A stretch of 64,000 bases of DNA, from sequence record NC_055721.1. One strand, given 5' to 3'. Made by a program: the position numbers and the translations under genes. Shown here in pieces: positions 1,616 to 56,304 of the stretch. Each line of letters begins with the position of its first letter. Position 1 is the stretch's first letter. The notes beneath the pieces were generated by a model. It did no database searches and had not been told where the DNA came from. It saw only the letters and a list, made by a program, of their open reading frames with translations. Origin of the DNA: Escherichia phage EcS1.

Positions 1616-1640
1616 GGGAGACTTCGGTCTCCCTTTCTTG
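1616..1640 (+). terminator. Rho-independent terminator after wac (GGGAGAC-TTCG-GTCTCCC + T-run)
   Basis: 7-bp GC stem, tetraloop, TTTCTT. Confidence 0.7.
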
Positions 1641-14655: not shown

Positions 14656-14671
14656 TACTTTAAAAAATTAT

Positions 14672-14697
14672 GGGAGACTTCGGTCTCCCATTTTTGT
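14672..14697 (+). terminator. Terminator after gene 23 (GGGAGAC-TTCG-GTCTCCC + ATTTTTGTTT)
   Basis: Hairpin plus T-run. Confidence 0.8.
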
Positions 14698-38439: not shown

Positions 38440-38470
38440 CAGATACAAAAATGGGAGACCGAAGTCTCCC
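38440..38470 (-). terminator. Minus-strand terminator (GGGAGAC-TTCG-GTCTCCC + ATTTTTGT) after small basic ORF
   Basis: Same 32-nt module as at 56268-56297. Confidence 0.75.
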
Positions 38471-38475
38471 ATAAC

Positions 38476-40600: not shown

Positions 40601-40944
40601 TAAATCACCAAGTAAGTTGAGCGTTTAGTAGAAACCAATTTTAGTCCTTCAATTGGTTCGACAATATTCTTTACAGTACCAATTGTGATGAATTCTGCAT
40701 CTTTAAAACGATTCTTTTTATCGTTAAAGACTGTACCCATGTATTGGTAACCTAATTCTACGCCATGATTGTTTACAGCAATCAATACTGCATCATATTC
40801 TTCATCAGGGACCATTGAGACTGCGTGGTCCATACGCAGTTCGGTTAACACTTCATCGATGCCTTTTTGAGATACTTCACCACGTATACCAATCAAGTTC
40901 GCACGAAGAATTTTATCAATCTTTTCTTTTAGCATATTGATCAA
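40600..40944 (-). CDS. Hypothetical protein downstream of DAHP synthase
   Basis: 114 aa ORF; overlaps DAHP synthase 3-prime end. Confidence 0.5.
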   Translation of the reverse strand: MINMLKEKIDKILRANLIGIRGEVSQKGIDEVLTELRMDHAVSMVPDEEYDAVLIAVNNHGVELGYQYMGTVFNDKKNRFKDAEFITIGTVKNIVEPIEGLKLVSTKRSTYLVI

Positions 40945-41926
40945 TCTCTGTTAGAGTTTTAACTGTTTGTTCCCAGCCGATGCAAGCATCAGTCACTGAA
41001 ACACCATACTTCATGTCACGAGAAATTTTCTGAGAACCTTCGTTCAGATGAGATTCTATCATAAAACCTTTAACTAATTGGAAACCTGCTTTCAATACTT
41101 CTTTAGCTACGCCTGGTTGACGCGTGAAGTCTTTTTCACTGTTCGAGTGTGAGCAGTCAACCATAACTGATTGGTTCACACCTGCGTGATACAGGTCGTC
41201 TAAGACATCAACAATATCGTCTTCATGATAGTTAGGACCCTTATCACCGCCACGTAGAACGATGTGAGTGTTCTTATTGCCTACGGCATGAACGATACCT
41301 ACGTTTCCGTTGTTATCCATACCTAAGTAACGGTGTGGGAACGCAGCAGATTTCATAGCATCAATAGCTACTTGAGCAGAACCATTTGTTCCATTCTTGA
41401 AGCCAACACACATAGGCAGACCTGAAGCGATTTCACGGTGTGTCTGTGATTCAGTCGTACGAGCGCCGATAGCAACCCATGAGAAAATACCACTAAGATA
41501 CTTAATCGTGAATGGGTCAAGCACTTCAGTCGCTAATGGAAGGCCAATATCTAAAAGGTCTAAACATAAACGACGAGCACAATGAAGACCATAGTTCAAG
41601 TCAAATGTGTCGTTCAAATGTGGGTCATTTACATAACCTTTCCAACCTACAGTCGTACGAGGCTTTTCAAAATAAACACGCATAACTAACAATACGTCAG
41701 GCAATTGTTTTTGCAATTCAGCCAGACGTTGGCCATATTCTAAAGCAGCTTTAGGGTCATGAATAGAACATGGACCCACTACAACAAGCTTACGATGGTT
41801 TTCGCCACACATAATGCGATTAACTTCTTCGCGATGTTTTTCTACTTGTTCTTTATGTCCTGCATGAAATGGAAGTTCACGAGCAAGTTCATTAGGCGAA
41901 TACAACTGTTCTACAACCAAATTCAT
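40916..41926 (-). CDS. 3-deoxy-D-arabino-heptulosonate-7-phosphate (DAHP) synthase, class I AroG/AroF/AroH-like
   Basis: 336 aa; collinear with recalled E. coli AroG: LVVVGPCSIHDP, LLVMRVYFEKPRTTVGWKG, NDPH, WVAIGARTTESQTHREIASGL, VGFKNGTNG, IVLRGG, VMVDCSHSNS, GFMIESHLNEG, SVTDACIGWE. Confidence 0.9.
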   Translation of the reverse strand: MNLVVEQLYSPNELARELPFHAGHKEQVEKHREEVNRIMCGENHRKLVVVGPCSIHDPKAALEYGQRLAELQKQLPDVLLVMRVYFEKPRTTVGWKGYVNDPHLNDTFDLNYGLHCARRLCLDLLDIGLPLATEVLDPFTIKYLSGIFSWVAIGARTTESQTHREIASGLPMCVGFKNGTNGSAQVAIDAMKSAAFPHRYLGMDNNGNVGIVHAVGNKNTHIVLRGGDKGPNYHEDDIVDVLDDLYHAGVNQSVMVDCSHSNSEKDFTRQPGVAKEVLKAGFQLVKGFMIESHLNEGSQKISRDMKYGVSVTDACIGWEQTVKTLTEIDQYAKRKD

Positions 41927-42198: not shown

Positions 42199-42619
42199 TT
42201 AAATCAAGTTCAAGATCAAAGTCTACTTTAAAGGAGGAATAAGTAACATCTAATTTAAAGTTAGTATCTTTAAGCAGAATATTCAGTACACCTGCAACTT
42301 CACCATGAATTTGTGCCTGAGTTCCAGGCTCATTAATGTTTTCATAGAGATGATTAGAAATAACCTGTTTAACAACCAGTTCTAAGACTTCAGTGTAACG
42401 TGGGAACTGAGAAGACTTATCTTCATCCATAAAGCTATTAATGAATTCCAGAGCTTGGTTTAAATTCACATGACCTGAATAAAAGCGTTCACGTGTTGTA
42501 CGGTTAATAGCTACAATATAAGCTTTATCAACTGATGCTGTTTCATCAATATTAAAAGCAAATTTATTTTGCTTTTCTACAAGTGATTTAGCACCATATA
42601 AGGTTTCAAAGGTAATCAT
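42158..42619 (-). CDS. Hypothetical protein
   Basis: 153 aa ORF. Confidence 0.5.
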   Translation of the reverse strand: MITFETLYGAKSLVEKQNKFAFNIDETASVDKAYIVAINRTTRERFYSGHVNLNQALEFINSFMDEDKSSQFPRYTEVLELVVKQVISNHLYENINEPGTQAQIHGEVAGVLNILLKDTNFKLDVTYSSFKVDFDLELDLSEKLFVRYSFYWG

Positions 42620-42819
42620 AGGTAATTTTCCTCTACGTATTTGAATACGCTTTTGTGTGTAAAGTGTCCACCATCAACAGTCTCTTCAGTATCGTAATCA
42701 CGAATATCTAAAGCAACACCGTCTTCATTATGATGGACAACAAAGATGAAACATTTACGTTCTTCGATTTCTTCAATCAAATCGTAGAGCTCACTAATAT
42801 CTTCTAAATAGTCACACAT
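42616..42819 (-). CDS. Hypothetical acidic small protein
   Basis: 67 aa ORF. Confidence 0.45.
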   Translation of the reverse strand: MCDYLEDISELYDLIEEIEERKCFIFVVHHNEDGVALDIRDYDTEETVDGGHFTHKSVFKYVEENYL

Positions 42820-43718
42820 TAAAAGTCACCATGAGCCACTTGCCAACATTCAACACCGATACGACGCCACATTTCTACTACCTGTGCACGGTCATCGACA
42901 GCCAGAACTACATCATAATCTTGGACAATATCGTTCCAGAAGATTTCTTCTTTCACAACGTCATCTTTACGTGGGTCGCCTTGCTTGCGCTGGAAATGCT
43001 TTTCAGTCTGAATCATGTTTTCGTTTAGCCAATTGATAGTAGCCACACGATGTTTCAGAGGCTCATCTTTGTTACCTGATTCACGTCCAGAGACGGTAAG
43101 GATTTTAAACCCTTGTTGTTGCAGCAATTTAAGAAGCAGTACAACCATCTCACGAGGAGTATCGTCACAGAGCTTATCAAGGTCGTAAGGAGAGCGGTGT
43201 TCGTTATCGGCTAATGTTCCATCAAGGTCAAAGATAACCGCTTGAGGGCGCCCTTCAGGATAATCAGCGGATACATATTTCATTGGAACAGACATCTTAG
43301 CGTACATAGAACGTAAGACATCAATTGGAACAGCCTTTTCACCACGATACTGGTTACGTTTCAGAAGCTCGGTCCATGGAATATCAAAACGTTCGATTTC
43401 AAGCTTAGTTTCATGTTTAACAGAGAATTCTTGCCACACTTTCAGAGTAGTAGGGTTCAAGTTCGTATCGGCAATGATTACGCCTTTACATCCATCAAGA
43501 GCTAACAATGTTTGAGCTGAAGAGAATTGTACTTTAGAGACAGCTTTCTCTTTTTGCTTTGTATATTTGTATTGGTTACGATATTCGAGCCCAAACAACT
43601 TTTCACGGAAGTCATCACGTGACAGGATATAGAAGCCAGGGTTCTTAGCAACATATTCATTAGCCCAAGTAGTTTTACCTGAACCTGGAGCACCTTGAGT
43701 CAAAATAATCTTTTTCAT
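42819..43718 (-). CDS. pseT: Polynucleotide 5-prime kinase / 3-prime phosphatase
   Basis: 299 aa; MKKIILTQGAPGSGKTTWA P-loop, AVIFDLDGTLA phosphatase motif, QGDPRKDDVVKEEIFW, VVEMWRRIGVECWQVA match recalled T4 Pnk. Confidence 0.96.
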   Translation of the reverse strand: MKKIILTQGAPGSGKTTWANEYVAKNPGFYILSRDDFREKLFGLEYRNQYKYTKQKEKAVSKVQFSSAQTLLALDGCKGVIIADTNLNPTTLKVWQEFSVKHETKLEIERFDIPWTELLKRNQYRGEKAVPIDVLRSMYAKMSVPMKYVSADYPEGRPQAVIFDLDGTLADNEHRSPYDLDKLCDDTPREMVVLLLKLLQQQGFKILTVSGRESGNKDEPLKHRVATINWLNENMIQTEKHFQRKQGDPRKDDVVKEEIFWNDIVQDYDVVLAVDDRAQVVEMWRRIGVECWQVAHGDF

Positions 43719-43927
43719 TCTTTCACCAATGATTTAATAAAGTCTTGGAGTTCTTTAGAAGCACGACCCCAGTTTTCATGATATCTTAAAGTATGCGCTT
43801 CTAAAATAGAAGCCATTTTATGAGAATCACATGATTGCTGTCGTTCTAGGTGCCGGCCATAAATTGTTGCTCTGACTTCTGATTCATAAATCAGCCCACG
43901 AAGTTGCTCTAGATGTTCAAGAGTCAT
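43715..43927 (-). CDS. Hypothetical small protein
   Basis: 70 aa ORF. Confidence 0.45.
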   Translation of the reverse strand: MTLEHLEQLRGLIYESEVRATIYGRHLERQQSCDSHKMASILEAHTLRYHENWGRASKELQDFIKSLVKE

Positions 43928-44099
43928 TAGTCACCTGTAGCTCTACAAAAGTCATTAAGGCGGTTCTAGCCGAGCTTGCCATGCCGTATAGCTCTTGAAC
44001 ACGTGAGCTACGCATATGCAAACCTAAATTCAAAGCGCGTTGTGCCTGTTCATAAGCTTCAAACAGCCCTTTCCATACGTTATATTGTTCAAGAGTCAT
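43917..44099 (-). CDS. Hypothetical small protein
   Basis: 60 aa ORF. Confidence 0.4.
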   Translation of the reverse strand: MTLEQYNVWKGLFEAYEQAQRALNLGLHMRSSRVQELYGMASSARTALMTFVELQVTNDS

Positions 44100-44335
44100 A
44101 GTTTGTCAATCTCATTGAATATATTAAGCAAAGTTTTGTTAAGTTCGTATTCACTTAAATCGATTTCTTCAATTCCGTCTTTACGGCTAATAGACCCAGA
44201 CCGAATACGATTAGTGGTTATCTGATTAACCCCGCCTGTGCATTTTGCACTTTCACATAAAGAGTACATCTTTGCTTTTAATTGAGTTTTTAGGTCCGGC
44301 GAATTAATCATATGTACAAAATCAAGACCAGTCAT
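44096..44335 (-). CDS. Hypothetical small protein
   Basis: 79 aa ORF. Confidence 0.45.
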   Translation of the reverse strand: MTGLDFVHMINSPDLKTQLKAKMYSLCESAKCTGGVNQITTNRIRSGSISRKDGIEEIDLSEYELNKTLLNIFNEIDKL

Positions 44336-44497
44336 AACTTAATTCCTTATACAAAGCTTCGCGAGCAGCCTTAAGTTCTTTGGCTGATTCATATGCACAT
44401 TTATCGTCGATTAATGACATTGCAACTTGTGTCTGACGTTGACCATGTAGTTTGGCTTTGAGTTCATAAGCTGCAAACAAATCTTTCAATTTATCAT

Positions 44498-44995
44498 TCA
44501 TACGTCAAGTTCCTTATACAAGTCTTCACGAGCTTCTTTCAGAATTTTACCTGTTTCGCGTAAGAATGGTTCTACTTTTTCACCAGTAACGCGTCCAGAA
44601 TTAACTAATGATAAATGACGACCATGACGTAAAGCAGCTTGTTCAAAGGCATGAACAATACTACGCTTACGGTCTCGTTCAAGGACTTCTTCTTCGAAGA
44701 TAGGATAGTCATTAACAGAAGACATAATGGAGTACCAATCGCGTAAAGGAATCTGAGTTTCTTCGTTCAGTTCAAATGTACGATCTACTGTATCACTATT
44801 AGGCGAATAGTATTCTACACGATGGACCATATCGCCACCGTCTGTGAGATGCCAGATATAACAAAATGTTGCTTTCTTTTCAAGAGGTGTACGAATACAA
44901 GAACCAAGCTGCATAAGCTTACGAAGCTCAGCATTTTTGATTTTGGTAAGACGTTCAGGTGAAGAGACAAAACTGTTATAACGTGGAGCAGCCAT
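44498..44995 (-). CDS. Hypothetical protein
   Basis: 165 aa ORF with upstream GC hairpin and GAGGA RBS. Confidence 0.5.
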   Translation of the reverse strand: MAAPRYNSFVSSPERLTKIKNAELRKLMQLGSCIRTPLEKKATFCYIWHLTDGGDMVHRVEYYSPNSDTVDRTFELNEETQIPLRDWYSIMSSVNDYPIFEEEVLERDRKRSIVHAFEQAALRHGRHLSLVNSGRVTGEKVEPFLRETGKILKEAREDLYKELDV

Positions 44996-45024
44996 AATAA
45001 TATCCTCAAATTTAATTATCCCAT

Positions 45025-45040
45025 AGAGCCCGAAGGCTCT
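45025..45040 (-). other. Intercistronic hairpin AGAGCC-CGAA-GGCTCT upstream of ORF 44498..44995
   Basis: Read directly. Confidence 0.55.
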
Positions 45041-45197
45041 AAGATTTTAAAATCAGTTTAATAGCTTTATATGCAAAGATTAATATCATACCAAATGCTA
45101 TTAAGCCAGTCATACCACTAGCACAACCAACGCTGCAACGCATGCAAGCAGAGCAACAACCAATCCTGCACAAAACAATGTAGCGCCTAAAGTCATT

Positions 45198-45494
45198 TTA
45201 CTTTTCACACTTCACTTCCTTCAAAGGAGCTCGATAATAACAAATGACACCGTTAGCATCTTTTACATAACGATTAACGTCATTCAACCATACTCTAAAT
45301 TCCTGTGATTCATTATATGGCATTCCTACGAAAGCAACACCATCAATCACTTTAACTTGCCATTGACCTGTCCAAGGTTTAATCGGGTCAGGCCAACTTG
45401 GGTCAACACGTTGCACAGGTTGTAGCTCAGGGACACTCTGGGAGCATCCAACCAAAAAGATAGATAAACATATGGCTAGAGATTTAAGTTTCAT
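45198..45494 (-). CDS. o-spanin (Rz1-like outer-membrane lipoprotein; T4 pseT.2 equivalent)
   Basis: Signal peptide with lipobox LVGC (MKLKSLAICLSIFLVGCSQS); directly downstream of i-spanin. Confidence 0.7.
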   Translation of the reverse strand: MKLKSLAICLSIFLVGCSQSVPELQPVQRVDPSWPDPIKPWTGQWQVKVIDGVAFVGMPYNESQEFRVWLNDVNRYVKDANGVICYYRAPLKEVKCEK

Positions 45495-45847
45495 CTGGTC
45501 GCCTCCTGCATATCCTGAGCGAACTTATTGAAGCTGTCATTGATTTGTTTCTCAACCAATTTAGGCTTCTTAGCTACTGTATCACTTCTTTTTGCGTCTG
45601 TAAACATCTTAGCATCAGACGTATCTCTTGCTAGACGATTTGCCTTACGTTCATCATCTAAAGCACTAAGACGAGTGAATCCATCTTTCAAATCTGTTAT
45701 CTGCTTATCTTGTTCTTTAACAGTTTGTTCAACATGAGTTAAAGATTCTTTTAAGTTATCGATACGGGCTTCTTGAATCTTTACAAAAGCAAAGACACTA
45801 AGAACACCTAGTATCAACAACATGTATCCACCATTTATAGTAGGCAT
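45491..45847 (-). CDS. i-spanin (Rz-like; T4 pseT.3 equivalent)
   Basis: N-terminal TM helix GYMLLILGVLSVFAFV then charged coiled-coil-like region; overlaps o-spanin start. Confidence 0.65.
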   Translation of the reverse strand: MPTINGGYMLLILGVLSVFAFVKIQEARIDNLKESLTHVEQTVKEQDKQITDLKDGFTRLSALDDERKANRLARDTSDAKMFTDAKRSDTVAKKPKLVEKQINDSFNKFAQDMQEATR

Positions 45848-46341
45848 AATTTAACGATTGTCTCAAAGATATCGTCTTGAGTCATATTGTTGATAAGAAT
45901 ATGATGGGGTGAATCAGAAGCTGAAATCTTAAAGCAAGTTTCAACCATTGAAGCCATTTCGTCAGCAGTTAAACGAGAATGCTGGATTCCAAGACGATGA
46001 TTACCATAGATTGGGTCAACAATAATGTAACATTTGTTGCCACTCAGATGGACATTAGGCTGGCTGATGTTAATGAACACTTCAGCGCCATATTTACCCA
46101 ACTGGTTTTCAAGGAAGCTCTTCATTTCTTCTACTGCGTCAGGCATAGCATCACGACGAGCTTCAGTGACTTTGTTGTTGTATTCTTTTTGCTTTTTACG
46201 TTTAGAAAGATTACGTGCCATGGCAATACGAAGATCGGTGATGTAACCAATAGTCTTAGAACCTTTAAAGATACTGATTCCATCATGACGATCACCGTAT
46301 TGAGCCATAACCATTTCATTTGTAATAAGTTGCATATTCAT
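45835..46341 (-). CDS. Alc-like protein (assigned by size and synteny; start moved to ATG after GAGGA RBS)
   Basis: 168 aa from MNMQLIT; lies between rnlA and spanins where T4 has alc (167 aa); sequence itself not verified. Confidence 0.4.
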   Translation of the reverse strand: MNMQLITNEMVMAQYGDRHDGISIFKGSKTIGYITDLRIAMARNLSKRKKQKEYNNKVTEARRDAMPDAVEEMKSFLENQLGKYGAEVFINISQPNVHLSGNKCYIIVDPIYGNHRLGIQHSRLTADEMASMVETCFKISASDSPHHILINNMTQDDIFETIVKLCLL

Positions 46342-46370
46342 TTTAATATCCTCATTTTGTTGGTAGGAGA

Positions 46371-46399
46371 ATCTTATCACAACAAAATGAGGATGTAAA
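46371..46399 (-). promoter_or_regulatory. Sigma70-like early promoter (TTTACA-17-TAAGAT) inside 15-bp inverted repeat upstream of alc-like gene
   Basis: IR arms 46348-46362 and 46380-46394; downstream arm contains the GAGGA RBS. Confidence 0.5.
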
Positions 46400-47572
46400 C
46401 TACTCTTGTTCGATTACAATTTCTTTCTTATATTCGTCTGGAACGAAGAACTTGTGATTCTTGTTAAAAGCTTCGTTAAGCTGTGGAATTAACTTATCTA
46501 GGTCTAAACCACCTGTGAACGCTTTCATCAGAATTGGGAACAGATAAGAACGGTCTGCATCTTTAAAGATTGTTTGAGCAGAGATAGCGAAGTCTTTACG
46601 GTCACGACCAGCTAGTTGCTTATAAGTTGTTTGAACTAAGTCTAATGCATGACGCAAGAACTCTAAATGAATAGTTTCAAACTTATCAATCTTAGTGATA
46701 GCCCATTCATCGCCTGCGAACATAGAACGAAGGTCATCAGAACCACCAGACACGACAGATTCGAAGAGAGCTTCGTTTTTAGTGATGGAATCTTTAGTAC
46801 GATGCAAAGCAACATACCAATCAGTTTTGAGCTTAAAGTTCAAACCGTTTTCCATTACAAAAACATAACCTTCTACACCTTCTTTGGCGCGAATGCCAGG
46901 CACAAATCGTTCATCGGCAGGAACATTAAATGCTTCTACCAAATGAGGACGAAGCATTGCATCTTTAAACAATTCTTCATATGGAACATATTCACCAGTC
47001 TTATTTTCACGAACATTCAGAAGAATCAGGTCACGTTTACTATAAGCCAGAACGATACGGTTATCTGGTGCAACGTATTCCATGTTACAAGTGAAGCCAT
47101 CTTTAGTAAGTTGAGTCACACGTTTCAAGAATTTTTCATAACGTGGACCATTGATAACTTGTAGTGCTGCATAAGCTTGTTCAGAAGAAATAGAAGCCTT
47201 AGACTTCAAGAACAGTTGGTCGTTATCTACAAAGCTAGAGATTAGAGAACCATCAGCCTTATCCATCATCAATTTGATTTTAGTAAGGTCCAAGTTCATG
47301 GTAAATGGAGTTTCATCTAAGTTAAAGAATTTTTCCATCGGACGAGCTGCAATACGAGTAGGCTTACCATCGACCATTTCAAACATAATGCCGCGGCACT
47401 CTAGAGCGTCAGGCAGAAGCCAATCAGAGTAAGATGCATAGTTATAACTGAAGATACGATACTCACCACCAAACGGCGTCTGGTAGTCACGGAAATAGAA
47501 TTTAGACTGGTCTTTTGGGTCAGTCAATTTCATCAGGTTTTTGTACAAATCATGTTCTTGTTTAGTAATCAT
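46400..47572 (-). CDS. rnlA: RNA ligase 1
   Basis: 390 aa; YRIFSYNYASYSDWLLPDALECRGIMFEM, EKFFNL, KADGSL, RIVLAY, ILLNVRENKTGEY match recalled T4 Rnl1. Confidence 0.95.
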   Translation of the reverse strand: MITKQEHDLYKNLMKLTDPKDQSKFYFRDYQTPFGGEYRIFSYNYASYSDWLLPDALECRGIMFEMVDGKPTRIAARPMEKFFNLDETPFTMNLDLTKIKLMMDKADGSLISSFVDNDQLFLKSKASISSEQAYAALQVINGPRYEKFLKRVTQLTKDGFTCNMEYVAPDNRIVLAYSKRDLILLNVRENKTGEYVPYEELFKDAMLRPHLVEAFNVPADERFVPGIRAKEGVEGYVFVMENGLNFKLKTDWYVALHRTKDSITKNEALFESVVSGGSDDLRSMFAGDEWAITKIDKFETIHLEFLRHALDLVQTTYKQLAGRDRKDFAISAQTIFKDADRSYLFPILMKAFTGGLDLDKLIPQLNEAFNKNHKFFVPDEYKKEIVIEQE

Positions 47573-56267: not shown

Positions 56268-56297
56268 AGATACAAAAATGGGAGACCGAAGTCTCCC
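56268..56297 (-). terminator. Gene 32 terminator (GGGAGAC-TTCG-GTCTCCC + ATTTTTGT)
   Basis: Hairpin 7 nt after gene 32 stop, T-run follows. Confidence 0.8.
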
Positions 56298-56304
56298 ATC
56301 ATTA

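What the first reader, a model, noticed from the sequence alone, without database searches (positions are those of the whole stretch)
44498..44995. Extra 165-aa gene and three small ORFs between pseT and the spanins
The T4 layout as I recall it has pseT.1-3 here. This window has a 165-aa unknown protein with its own hairpin-RBS module plus three 60-79-aa ORFs (43715..44335) and an unlisted ORF of roughly 54 aa at about 44336-44497. This is a variable accessory locus.
Basis: inference. Interest (0 to 1): 0.3.

Follow-up and report, generated by a model that had tools for sequence, protein, structure and literature searches.

The report
Variable accessory-gene slot in T4-like phage
Between the lysis (spanin) genes and the RNA-repair kinase gene of this T4-like phage lies an ordinary "plastic" slot holding one widespread gene of unknown function, a stand-alone copy of that gene's tail domain, the T4 pseT.1 counterpart and two further small genes; none has a known function.

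Summary
The ORFs are real and look coding. The window is Escherichia phage EcS1. T4 pseT.3 and pseT.2 are the spanins themselves, present here at 45198-45847. The 70-aa ORF next to pseT is the PseT.1 ortholog.

The 165-aa gene is not peculiar to this phage. It belongs to an uncharacterised family (phrog_4482) found directly after the o-spanin in 264 T4-like genomes. T4's own slot holds only pseT.1.

A confident AlphaFold model shows an N-terminal alpha/beta domain with no match among solved structures, plus a long helical hairpin. The 59-aa ORF is a stand-alone copy of that hairpin and resembles other phages' versions more than EcS1's own.

Compared with Serratia phage CHI14, the 59-, 79- and 60-aa ORFs form a clean 570-bp block inserted exactly at a gene junction, with short duplicated junction sequences. 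The 79-aa ORF has no detectable relative.

The hairpin upstream of the 165-aa gene is conserved with compensatory base changes across genera.

No function can be assigned. My best guess is non-essential, early-expressed binding proteins. This is an ordinary hyperplastic region of low to moderate interest.

The parts
45491..45847 (-). i-spanin, ortholog of T4 PseT.3 (left border of the slot together with the o-spanin)
   Evidence: phrog_739 'Rz-like spanin', E 1.6e-30. Same position as T4 pseT.3.
45198..45494 (-). o-spanin lipoprotein, ortholog of T4 PseT.2
   Evidence: phrog_812, E 3.6e-39. LVGC lipobox visible in the translation.
45110..45196 (-). Tiny hydrophobic ORF 'type A' (28 aa from the ATG; 32 aa from GTG at 45208): MTLGATLFCAGLVVALLACVAALVVLVV
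   Evidence: Similar peptides sit at the same place in CHI14 (33 aa) and Kosakonia phage 305 (32 aa, annotated). The codon-frame score is near zero (0.006), so conservation is the only support.
45039..45113 (-). Tiny hydrophobic ORF 'type B' (24 aa): MTGLIAFGMILIFAYKAIKLILKS, with an ATGA overlap onto type A
   Evidence: Similar 25-aa ORFs follow the o-spanin in fHe-Yen9-01 and CF1. Sequence read.
45024..45041 (-). Intercistronic RNA hairpin UAGAGCC-UUCG-GGCUCUA, starting at the stop codon of the tiny ORF
   Evidence: Present in the predicted minimum-energy fold. The UUCG-type hairpin is present in 8 of 11 aligned phages and P545 has a UUAG variant. 5 of 7 stem pairs show compensatory changes, and the covariation score exceeded all 500 shuffles. 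IME08 and VR25 carry a different hairpin. No U-run follows. No Rfam match.
44996..45023 (-). Conserved spacer and Shine-Dalgarno: UGGGAUAAUUAAAUUUGAGGAUAUUAUU, then AUG
   Evidence: Columns GGAT.AT, the spacer A-run (A..A) and TGAGGA are invariant or nearly so across 11 phages. The hairpin-plus-box pattern occurs only once in the 64-kb window.
44498..44995 (-). 165-aa gene (EcS1 gp203), member of the uncharacterised family phrog_4482: N-terminal alpha/beta domain (residues 1-93) plus helical hairpin (94-163)
   Evidence: phrog_4482, E 1.9e-58, full length. 100% identical to EcS1 KNT65_gp203. 264 phage records by tblastn. AF2 pLDDT 95.9. No Pfam, NCBIfam, PADLOC or PDB sequence hit.
44322..44501 (-). 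59-aa gene: stand-alone copy of the family's C-terminal helical hairpin (aligns to residues 108-163 of the 165-aa protein)
   Evidence: Matches phrog_4482 positions 107-161, E 2.8e-8. C-terminal-domain HMM E 4.8e-13. 41-51% identical to the best-matching C-termini of other phages' homologs (e.g. IME08 44%) versus 34% to EcS1's own, which ranks 23rd of 30.
44096..44335 (-). 79-aa ORFan gene
   Evidence: No tblastn match in 50,697 phage records. Only itself in IMG/VR. No family hits. Codon-frame score 0.185, and an AAGGA Shine-Dalgarno upstream.
43917..44099 (-). 60-aa gene, a small helical type also found in this slot in other genera
   Evidence: 34% identity to the 57-aa gp242 of Yersinia phage fHe-Yen9-01, which sits in the same slot (E 7e-4). 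A similar 57-aa ORF occurs in CF1. Its first 14 nt are identical to the first 14 nt of the PseT.1 gene.
43715..43927 (-). 70-aa gene, ortholog of T4 PseT.1, with an ATGA overlap onto pseT
   Evidence: 41% identity to T4 PseT.1, E 2e-17. phrog_2347, E 5e-24. PF26888 in the precomputed annotation.
42819..43718 (-). pseT, polynucleotide 5'-kinase/3'-phosphatase (right border of the slot)
   Evidence: PF25109, E 6e-54; PF13671, E 7e-20; phrog_505, E 2e-114.
43928..44497 (.). 570-bp block (60-, 79- and 59-aa ORFs) with no counterpart in Serratia phage CHI14, inserted exactly at the junction between the 165-aa gene's stop and the PseT.1 start
   Evidence: Colinear blastn of EcS1 against CHI14 aligns 42817-43927 and 44498-45042 to adjacent CHI14 sequence. 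Junction duplicates: 48 nt at 73% (44343-44390 vs 44510-44557) and 14 nt exact (43914-43927 vs 44086-44099).

Best explanation
**What it is.** This is a hyperplastic accessory-gene slot of a T4-type genome (Escherichia phage EcS1). It lies between the spanin genes (orthologs of pseT.3 and pseT.2) and pseT.

**Shown:**
- The slot holds the T4 counterpart PseT.1 (70 aa).
- It also holds a ~160-aa gene that is widespread in T4-like phages but absent from T4's own slot.
- That gene comes with its own conserved 5' module: a UUCG hairpin, an invariant spacer and a Shine-Dalgarno sequence.
- Relative to the CHI14 layout, a 570-bp block of three small genes sits exactly at the junction between those two genes.
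- The 165-aa protein is modelled with high confidence as an alpha/beta N-domain with no match among solved structures, followed by a long antiparallel helical hairpin.
- The 59-aa gene encodes just that hairpin and resembles a different allelic lineage more than EcS1's own gene.

**Inferred, origin.** The block arrived by recombination with another T4-like phage. Short homologies at conserved gene ends probably mediated it:
- the '...AREALYKEL' 3' end, whose YKEL codons also carry the AAGGA ribosome-binding site for the next gene;
- the 'ATGACTCTTGAACA' 5' start.

**Inferred, function (weakly supported):**
- The genes carry no promoter of their own in the locus. They are probably read from promoters upstream of alc or rnlA, as in T4, and are translationally coupled.
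- The products are probably small, soluble, non-essential proteins that act by binding a partner, either a host or phage protein or a nucleic acid.
- The hairpin probably serves as a dimerisation or interaction module of the four-helix-bundle type.
- The stand-alone hairpins probably either self-associate or pair with the full-length protein.
- The most likely role is host-specific takeover or counter-defence, as for other genes of T4 hyperplastic regions.
- The RNA hairpin most likely acts as an mRNA decay barrier or insulator in front of the gene. It is probably not a terminator or promoter.
For: **Identity and layout**
- EcS1 gp203 is 100% identical.
- ORFs, codon statistics, ATGA overlaps and ribosome-binding sites.
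- The T4 slot contains only pseT.1.
- PseT.1 orthology.

**Family distribution and synteny**
- phrog_4482, E 2e-58.
- 264 phage records, against 798 for PseT.1. About 650 of those 798 records are at least 80% identical to T4 PseT.1.
- Only 23 cluster representatives among 1.84 billion proteins.
- The gene follows the o-spanin in 13 loci from at least 10 genera.

**Structure**
- pLDDT 95.9.
- BFVD returns only uncharacterised T4-like phage proteins, including stand-alone hairpins.

**Origin of the 59-aa gene:**

**Block insertion and junction repeats:**

**Variability**
- The slot is 224-1479 bp across 16 phages.
- The closest relative of the 165-aa gene (65% identity) has no further credible ORF (at most a 35-aa one) before pseT.

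**RNA hairpin**
- Covariation.
- No T-run after the stem, and similar UUCG hairpins elsewhere in the window.

**Promoters:** no late or MotA-type promoter in the locus, and sigma-70-like matches across the scanned region 42500-46500 no more frequent than in shuffled sequence.

**Concept:** hyperplastic regions and cassette shuffling in T4-like phages are described in PMC4122927.
Against: - No direct evidence of function exists. There is no similarity to any characterised protein, domain or solved fold.
- Expression timing, dimerisation and partner binding are inferred, not shown.
- The direction of the indel rests on parsimony over 16 loci. It could be an insertion in EcS1 or a deletion in relatives.
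- The junction repeats may simply reflect conserved coding ends rather than recombination substrates.
- The relation of PseT.1 to the hairpin domain is only suggestive (hhalign P 1.4e-4, probability 53%, 28 columns).
- The relation of the 60-aa type to either is not supported by HMMs.
Confidence: 0.55

Rival explanations
1. The three block ORFs are debris left by recombination and have no function of their own. This applies especially to the 59-aa ORF, read as the truncated 3' third of a second gene copy, and to the 79-aa ORFan.
For: - The 59-aa ORF covers only residues 108-163 of the family.
- The block is absent from CHI14 and from the nearest relative of the 165-aa gene.
- The 79-aa ORF has no detectable relative anywhere searched.
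Against: - All three keep an ATG start, an upstream Shine-Dalgarno sequence, tight or overlapping junctions and positive codon-frame scores of 0.18-0.38.
- The 59-aa ORF starts where the two helices of the hairpin begin to pair.
- Stand-alone hairpin genes recur independently: PM2 71 aa, P0026 87 aa, KPV15 89 aa.
- The 60-aa type is kept in the same slot in Yersinia and Citrobacter phages.
Confidence: 0.2
2. The 165-aa protein, and perhaps PseT.1 and the hairpin paralogs, is an accessory factor of the Pnk/Rnl1 tRNA-repair pathway or an inhibitor of host anticodon nucleases. Its conserved basic residues would bind RNA or the nuclease.
For: - The gene always lies between rnlA and pseT.
- PseT.1 is translationally coupled to pseT through an ATGA overlap.
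- Conserved Lys, Arg and His positions: K20, K41, HG.R, SGK.
Against: - T4, in which Pnk/Rnl1 counter-defence against PrrC was defined (T4 record annotation), lacks the gene in this slot.
- Gene order in T4-like phages is largely inherited, so synteny is weak evidence of shared function.
- Alc and the spanins, which are unrelated in function, lie in the same run.
- No similarity to RNA-binding folds.
Confidence: 0.1
3. The gene belongs to the lysis cassette. It would be a cytoplasmic regulator acting with the spanins and the tiny membrane peptides that precede it.
For: It lies immediately downstream of the o-spanin in 12 of the 13 loci (in PM2 two small ORFs intervene), often after one or two conserved tiny hydrophobic ORFs.
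Against: - No signal peptide or transmembrane segment; the model is a soluble protein.
- A conserved hairpin separates it from the upstream genes.
- T4 spanins work without it.
- Holin and endolysin genes are elsewhere in T4-type genomes (established knowledge).
Confidence: 0.07
4. The hairpin-spacer-SD element is a PeSL-type mobile promoter/terminator cassette that drives the gene and mediates its shuffling.
For: - It has a stem-loop, then an A/T-rich box containing GATAAT, then a Shine-Dalgarno sequence and ATG, within a hyperplastic region. This resembles the PeSL composition described in PMC4122927.
- EcS1 has TGGGATAAT, which resembles an extended -10 element.
Against: - PeSLs carry a full -35/N17/-10 promoter between the stem-loop and the Shine-Dalgarno sequence. 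Here only about 17-22 nt separate them, so a -35 would fall inside the stem.
- The promoter scan finds nothing at this position.
- The TG of the extended -10 is not conserved.
- The 570-bp indel is not adjacent to the hairpin.
Confidence: 0.1

Closest known systems
phrog_4482 (PHROGs family, function unknown); for example Serratia phage CHI14 ARW57647.1, Enterobacter phage CC31 CC31p226, VR25_239
   Same: Full-length profile match (E 1.9e-58). Same length, same position after the o-spanin, same upstream hairpin/SD module.
   Different: EcS1's copy has a longer inter-helix loop (NSGRVTGEKVEPFL). Among the loci examined it is the only one followed by a second, stand-alone hairpin gene from another allelic lineage.
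T4 PseT.1 (NP_049835.1; PF26888 / phrog_2347), uncharacterised
   Same: The 70-aa ORF is its ortholog (41% identity, same position overlapping pseT). A helix-1 motif, (L/I)(I/V)xxxExxAxx(H/Y)G(R), is shared with the hairpin domain of the 165-aa family (hhalign P 1.4e-4).
   Different: The 165-aa protein is not a PseT.1. It has an extra ~100-residue N-domain and no significant pairwise similarity. The domain-level relation is unproven.
Hyperplastic regions and PeSL-mediated modular shuffling in T4-like phages (Arbiol 2010, PMC2839356; Comeau 2014, PMC4122927)
   Same: Small ORFs and ORFans appear as indels between conserved genes. Exchange happens at short conserved sequences at gene borders.
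   Different: The repeated sequences bordering the block are conserved coding ends (C-terminal LYKEL with its embedded Shine-Dalgarno; N-terminal MTLE). They are not promoter/stem-loop cassettes, and the one stem-loop in the locus lacks a PeSL promoter.
C(UUCG)G tetraloop hairpins of T4 intercistronic regions (Tuerk et al. 1988; from my own knowledge, not checked here)
   Same: A GC-rich 6-7 bp stem closed by a UUCG loop in an intercistronic gap. Several further examples occur in this window.
   Different: This one is not followed by a U-run. Instead it is tied to an invariant GGAU(A/U)AU...UGAGGA spacer in front of one particular gene across genera, with stem covariation.
ROP-like helical hairpins that dimerise into four-helix bundles
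   Different: Only a generic fold resemblance with no sequence relation. Dimerisation was not tested.

Membership tests
phrog_4482 (~160-aa T4-like phage family, unknown function) - for the 165-aa ORF | Full-length profile match | tested here: met
   E 1.9e-58, residues 4-165 on profile positions 3-162 of 162.
phrog_4482 - for the 165-aa ORF | Syntenic position: first sizeable gene after the o-spanin, upstream of pseT | tested here: met
   Holds in 12 of 13 loci from at least 10 genera. In PM2 two small ORFs precede the gene.
phrog_4482 - for the 59-aa ORF | Full-length architecture (N-domain plus hairpin) | tested here: not met
   Only profile positions 107-161 match (E 2.8e-8). The N-domain HMM gives no hit. 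It is a domain-only relative.
T4 PseT.1 family (PF26888 / phrog_2347) - for the 70-aa ORF | Sequence similarity to T4 PseT.1 over the full length | tested here: met
   BLASTP 41% identity, E 2e-17. phrog_2347, E 4.9e-24. PF26888 in precomputed annotation.
T4 PseT.1 family - for the 70-aa ORF | Position immediately upstream of pseT, abutting or overlapping it | tested here: met
   43715-43927 overlaps the pseT start at 43718 by 4 nt. In T4, pseT.1 directly abuts pseT.
T4 PseT.1 family - for the 165-aa ORF | Sequence similarity to PseT.1 | tested here: not met
   BLASTP E 0.078 over 18 residues. Profile-profile P 1.4e-4 over 28 columns only.
T4 PseT.1 family - for the 60-aa ORF | Sequence similarity to PseT.1 | tested here: inconclusive
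   The first 14 nt are identical and hhalign gives P 0.007 over 19 columns. The helix-1 HMM gives E 27.
T4 spanins PseT.3 / PseT.2 - for the flanking genes at 45198-45847 | Profile match, N-terminal TM segment (i-spanin), lipobox (o-spanin), adjacent overlapping genes downstream of alc | tested here: met
   phrog_739 and phrog_812. Sequences. T4 layout. PMC6139136.
PeSL promoter/stem-loop cassette (PMC4122927) - for the hairpin module | Stem-loop upstream of the gene | tested here: met
PeSL promoter/stem-loop cassette - for the hairpin module | Sigma-70-like -35/N17/-10 promoter between the stem-loop and the Shine-Dalgarno sequence | tested here: not met
   Only 17-22 nt separate the stem from the Shine-Dalgarno sequence. 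The scan gives no promoter call here, and there is no conserved -35.
Intrinsic (rho-independent) terminator - for the hairpin | GC-rich stem followed directly by a U-run | tested here: not met
   The stem is followed by UGGGAUAAUU. The terminator scan does not call it. Other UUCG hairpins in the window do have T-runs.
Hyperplastic region of T4-type genomes (Comeau 2007/2014) | Gene content varies among related phages between conserved flanking genes; enriched in small ORFs and ORFans | tested here: met
   224-1479 bp and one to six small ORFs (tiny ones included) across 16 phages. The 79-aa ORFan.
Known anti-phage defence system proteins (PADLOC-DB) | Profile match | tested here: not met
   No hit at E <= 1 for any of the six ORFs.

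The most novel reading that the evidence does not exclude
The ~160-aa family could be a new class of phage takeover or counter-defence effectors built around one interaction module. Its components would be an N-domain with no match among solved structures, a helical hairpin, the stand-alone hairpin paralogs (the 59-aa gene; possibly PseT.1 and the 60-aa type), and a covarying 5' RNA hairpin/box. Phages would duplicate and swap the hairpin module to retarget or to act as decoys, possibly in connection with the adjacent tRNA-repair genes.
Probability: 0.1. Interest if true: 0.6.

Novelty: new member of a known kind. Interest (0 to 1): 0.25.

Why it matters
This mainly helps annotation:
- It corrects the reading of the locus. 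The spanins are pseT.3 and pseT.2, and the 70-aa ORF is PseT.1.
- It shows that the 165-aa gene belongs to a widespread, still uncharacterised family that the T4 model phage lacks in this slot.

It also documents a clean example of block insertion at a gene junction with duplicated coding ends. And it flags a conserved, covarying 5' hairpin element.

If the family turns out to be a host-range or counter-defence factor, it would be relevant to therapeutic T4-like phages of Klebsiella, Enterobacter, Serratia and E. coli, which carry it. Nothing here shows that yet.

Tried and rejected
**Function of the 165-aa protein: no leads**
- Pfam, NCBIfam and PADLOC scans, and PDB sequence searches with the single sequence and with a 22-sequence profile, found nothing.
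- Foldseek against BFVD returned only uncharacterised relatives.
- The AFDB50 library was not available.

**Spurious hits**
- Two long repeat proteins in the HMMER search (P0021, P0025) were inspected and dismissed as repeat or low-complexity artefacts.

**Searches that found only EcS1 or nothing**
- The search for related loci with the family alignment failed for lack of a conserved stretch.
- The same tool with single proteins found only EcS1 itself.
- Literature searches for 'pseT.1' and for Tevenvirinae accessory or anti-defence genes returned nothing.

**One superfamily for all the small ORFs: not established**
- Confirmed only for the 59-aa ORF.
- Suggestive for PseT.1.
- Not supported for the 60-aa and 95-119-aa types.

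**Regulatory signals in the locus: none found**
- No T4 late promoter (TATAAATA) or MotA-box promoter in the locus, sigma-70-like matches at the chance level of shuffled sequence, and no Rfam family.
- The PeSL and intrinsic-terminator readings of the hairpin were rejected on anatomy.
Full report
**1. Source and layout**

The 165-aa translation is 100% identical to KNT65_gp203 of Escherichia phage EcS1, a 175,437-bp genome. EcS1 belongs to Straboviridae, Tevenvirinae, genus Kagamiyamavirus.

All genes between 41 and 47.6 kb lie on the minus strand. In the direction of transcription the order is:

| Coordinates | Gene |
|---|---|
| 46400-47572 | rnlA |
| 45835-46380 | alc (PF17527, E 2e-49) |
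| 45491-45847 | i-spanin (phrog_739) |
| 45198-45494 | o-spanin (phrog_812) |
| 45039-45196 | two tiny hydrophobic ORFs |
| 45024-45041 | RNA hairpin |
| 44498-44995 | 165-aa gene |
| 44322-44501 | 59-aa ORF |
| 44096-44335 | 79-aa ORF |
| 43917-44099 | 60-aa ORF |
| 43715-43927 | 70-aa ORF |
| 42819-43718 | pseT (PF25109, E 6e-54) |

**2. Checking the observation**

The 'unlisted ~54-aa ORF' is a 59-aa ATG ORF at 44322-44501.

The genes are tightly packed. ATGA stop/start overlaps join 165/59, 79/60 and 70/pseT, and overlaps of 14 and 11 nt join 59/79 and 60/70. Shine-Dalgarno-like sequences precede most starts; the one before the 60-aa ORF is weak.

I trained a codon-frame likelihood model on the window's 35 ORFs of at least 200 aa. 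It gives positive scores for all five ORFs: 165 aa 0.36, 59 aa 0.38, 79 aa 0.19, 60 aa 0.18 and 70 aa 0.11. Real 60-codon chunks average 0.32 (5th percentile 0.11), and no wrong-frame chunk exceeds 0. The ORFs therefore look like genes.

**3. Comparison with T4**

In T4 the order is alc, pseT.3, pseT.2, pseT.1, pseT. pseT.3 and pseT.2 are the spanins (PMC6139136). Only pseT.1 (75 aa) lies between the spanins and pseT.

The window's 70-aa ORF is the PseT.1 ortholog. It is 41% identical (E 2e-17), matches phrog_2347 at E 5e-24 and carries PF26888 in the precomputed annotation.

So all three T4 pseT.x genes are present here. The extra genes are the 165-, 59-, 79- and 60-aa ORFs and the tiny hydrophobic ORFs.

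**4. The 165-aa family**

- It matches phrog_4482 (function unknown) over its full length, E 1.9e-58.
- tblastn finds it in 264 of 50,697 phage records, all T4-like. Hosts include Klebsiella, Escherichia, Enterobacter, Serratia, Citrobacter, Salmonella, Yersinia, Erwinia, Kosakonia and Pectobacterium.
- An exhaustive HMMER scan of 1.84 billion cluster representatives gives only 23 hits. Two of these are spurious repeat proteins.
- In 13 loci from at least 10 genera the gene follows the o-spanin and precedes pseT.
- PseT.1 occurs in 798 records. About 650 of them are at least 80% identical to T4 PseT.1, that is, T4- and RB69-type phages.
- Only 55 Escherichia records carry the 165-aa family, and the examples inspected were Dhakavirus and Gaprivervirus. 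This fits absence from the T4 group, but I did not check every genome.
- No Pfam, NCBIfam, PADLOC or PDB sequence relationship was found, either with the single sequence or with a 22-sequence profile.

**5. Structure**

AlphaFold2 with the 22-sequence alignment gives pLDDT 95.9 and pTM 0.78. The model has two parts:
- an alpha/beta N-domain (strands 8-10, 43-51, 54-63, 72-75 and 91-93, with short helices);
- a long antiparallel helical hairpin (helices 94-132 and 138-163).

Invariant or nearly invariant residues are V10, K20, L24, G31, L38, K41, V60, P65, L76, G125 and G149. Recurring motifs are LRKLM..GSC..TPLEKKA, FE.AA..HG.R and ESGK.L..AR.ALY.EL. No catalytic-looking constellation is evident.

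**6. The 59-aa ORF**

It matches positions 107-161 of phrog_4482 (E 2.8e-8) and an HMM of the family's C-terminal domain (E 4.8e-13). It aligns to residues 108-163 of the 165-aa protein, which is the stretch where the two helices pair.

It is 41-51% identical to the best-matching C-termini of other lineages (P0010, P0011, IME08, VR25 and others). It is only 34% identical to EcS1's own C-terminus, which ranks 23rd of 30. It is therefore not a recent local duplication. It comes from another allelic lineage, the one with the short-loop variant ALGDV..AYESGK.

Stand-alone hairpin genes also occur in Pectobacterium phage PM2 (71 aa), in a metagenomic 87-aa protein (P0026) and in KPV15 (89 aa).

**7. 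The other small ORFs**

- The 60-aa ORF is 34% identical to the 57-aa gp242 of Yersinia phage fHe-Yen9-01, which lies in the same slot (E 7e-4). A similar 57-aa ORF precedes pseT in Citrobacter phage CF1.
- The 79-aa ORF has no tblastn match in the phage collection. It finds only itself in IMG/VR.

I also asked whether all the small proteins are paralogous hairpins. The PseT.1 family (42 sequences) aligned against the hairpin domain (25 sequences) gives hhalign P 1.4e-4 and probability 53% over 28 columns. That stretch covers a shared helix-1 motif (an earlier, smaller test is). This is suggestive only. The 60-aa and the 95-119-aa types show no significant relation.

**8. How the locus was built**

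blastn of EcS1 against Serratia phage CHI14 is colinear:
- 42817-43927 aligns with pseT plus PseT.1 (81.5% identity).
- 44498-45042 aligns with the 160-aa gene (70-78% identity).

In CHI14 these two segments are adjacent, and the 160-aa stop overlaps the PseT.1 ATG. EcS1 43928-44497 (570 bp, carrying the 60-, 79- and 59-aa ORFs) has no counterpart.

The block's ends repeat the junction sequences:
- The 3' end of the 59-aa ORF resembles the 3' end of the 165-aa gene (48 nt, 73%; both encode AREALYKEL or AREDLYKEL). The YKEL codons TATAAGGAA supply the AAGGA Shine-Dalgarno sequence for the next gene.
- The 60-aa and 70-aa ORFs both begin with the identical 14 nt ATGACTCTTGAACA. About 0.005 exact 14-nt repeats would be expected by chance in 1.65 kb (my estimate).

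Across 16 phages the slot ranges from 224 bp (T4) to 1479 bp (EcS1). It holds one to six small ORFs (tiny ones included) in varying combinations and orders. The nearest relative of the 165-aa gene (65% identity, a Logan contig) has no further credible ORF (at most a 35-aa one) before pseT.

This is the behaviour described for hyperplastic regions of T4-like phages (PMC4122927). The difference is that the short homologies here are conserved coding ends rather than PeSL cassettes.

**9. The hairpin-RBS module**

AGAGCC-UUCG-GGCUCU (45024-45041, minus strand) starts at the stop codon of the preceding tiny ORF. It is followed by UGGGAUAAUUAAAUUUGAGGAUAUUAUU-AUG.

Eight of 11 homologous loci have a UUCG hairpin at the same place and P545 has a UUAG variant; IME08 and VR25 have a different hairpin. 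Five of 7 stem pairs show compensatory changes, 80.8% of cells are paired, and the covariation score exceeded all 500 shuffles and all slid controls. The spacer columns GGAT.AT, the spacer A-run (A..A) and TGAGGA are invariant or nearly so.

The element lacks several features of known types:
- no U-run, so it is not a canonical terminator;
- no room for a -35/-10 promoter, so it is not a PeSL;
- no Rfam match.

No late or MotA-type promoter lies inside the locus. Several similar C(UUCG)G hairpins occur elsewhere in the window, most of them with T-runs.

My inference is that it acts as an mRNA decay barrier or insulator, or as a processing signal, in front of the gene. This is untested.

**10. 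Function**

Nothing here identifies a function. The best-supported reading is by analogy with other genes of T4 hyperplastic regions. These would be small, soluble, non-essential proteins, probably expressed before late genes from promoters upstream of alc or rnlA. They would act by binding a host or phage partner, with the helical hairpin as an oligomerisation or interaction module.

Rivals are listed with their evidence: recombination debris, an accessory role in tRNA repair, a lysis accessory, and a PeSL cassette. I consider all of them less likely.

**11. Verdict**

It needs correction on the T4 layout, on PseT.1 and on how widespread the 165-aa family is.

The finding is an ordinary hyperplastic region with a few neat details:
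- a domain-only paralog derived from a foreign allele;
- a clean block insertion with duplicated junctions;
- a covarying 5' hairpin;
- an N-domain with no match among solved structures.

Interest is low to moderate.

Noticed in passing
window 45039-45196 (-): Two tiny hydrophobic ORFs lie directly after the o-spanin and overlap each other by ATGA. Type A is 28 aa (MTLGATLFCAGL...). Type B is 24 aa (...IFAYKAIKLILKS). Each has look-alikes at the same place in other genera: CHI14 and Kosakonia 305 for type A, fHe-Yen9-01 and CF1 for type B. They may be unannotated membrane peptides linked to lysis.
   Followed up: partly
window 44996-45041 (-); L001, L005, L006, L009-L012, L014 upstream of the homologous gene: A UUCG hairpin with compensatory stem changes, followed by an invariant GGAU(A/U)AU...UGAGGA spacer, is conserved in front of the ~160-aa gene across genera. 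It matches no Rfam family and is neither a canonical terminator nor a PeSL. Its role is unknown.
   Followed up: partly
window 40916-41926 (-): A 336-aa ORF resembles DAHP synthase (3-deoxy-7-phosphoheptulonate synthase), an auxiliary metabolic gene. CHI14 and Klebsiella phage P545 annotate the same gene nearby.
   Followed up: no
window 43914-43927 and 44086-44099 (-): The PseT.1 gene and the 60-aa gene start with the identical 14 nt ATGACTCTTGAACA (MTLE). The 60-aa N-terminus resembles the CHI14 PseT.1 N-terminus. This hints that the 60-aa type is a PseT.1-derived paralog, but profile tests were not significant.
   Followed up: partly
window 1616-1633 (+), 14670-14691 (+), 38451-38472 (-), 56277-56300 (-): Near-identical GGGAGAC-UUCG-GUCUCCC hairpins followed by T-runs recur at four or more sites. 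This looks like a repeated terminator cassette of the kind implicated in modular shuffling of T4-like genomes.
   Followed up: no
window 42691-42715 (-): A match to the MotA-box middle-promoter pattern (TGCTTTA-N12-TACGAT) lies inside the 67-aa ORF just downstream of pseT. It could drive the downstream cd.x-like genes.
   Followed up: no
window 45835-46380 (-): The mechanical alc ORF starts at a GTG 13 codons upstream of where the Pfam ALC profile begins. The true start is probably the ATG at about 46341 (MNMQLITNE...).
   Followed up: no
L008 2187-2501; L016 2063-2481; L013 4089-4814: Variants of the slot occur in other phages. fHe-Yen9-01 has an N-terminally truncated 104-aa family member. 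In PM2 a stand-alone hairpin gene and a PseT.1-like gene precede, rather than follow, the ~160-aa gene. VR25 carries a MobE-like homing-nuclease gene next to pseT.
   Followed up: partly
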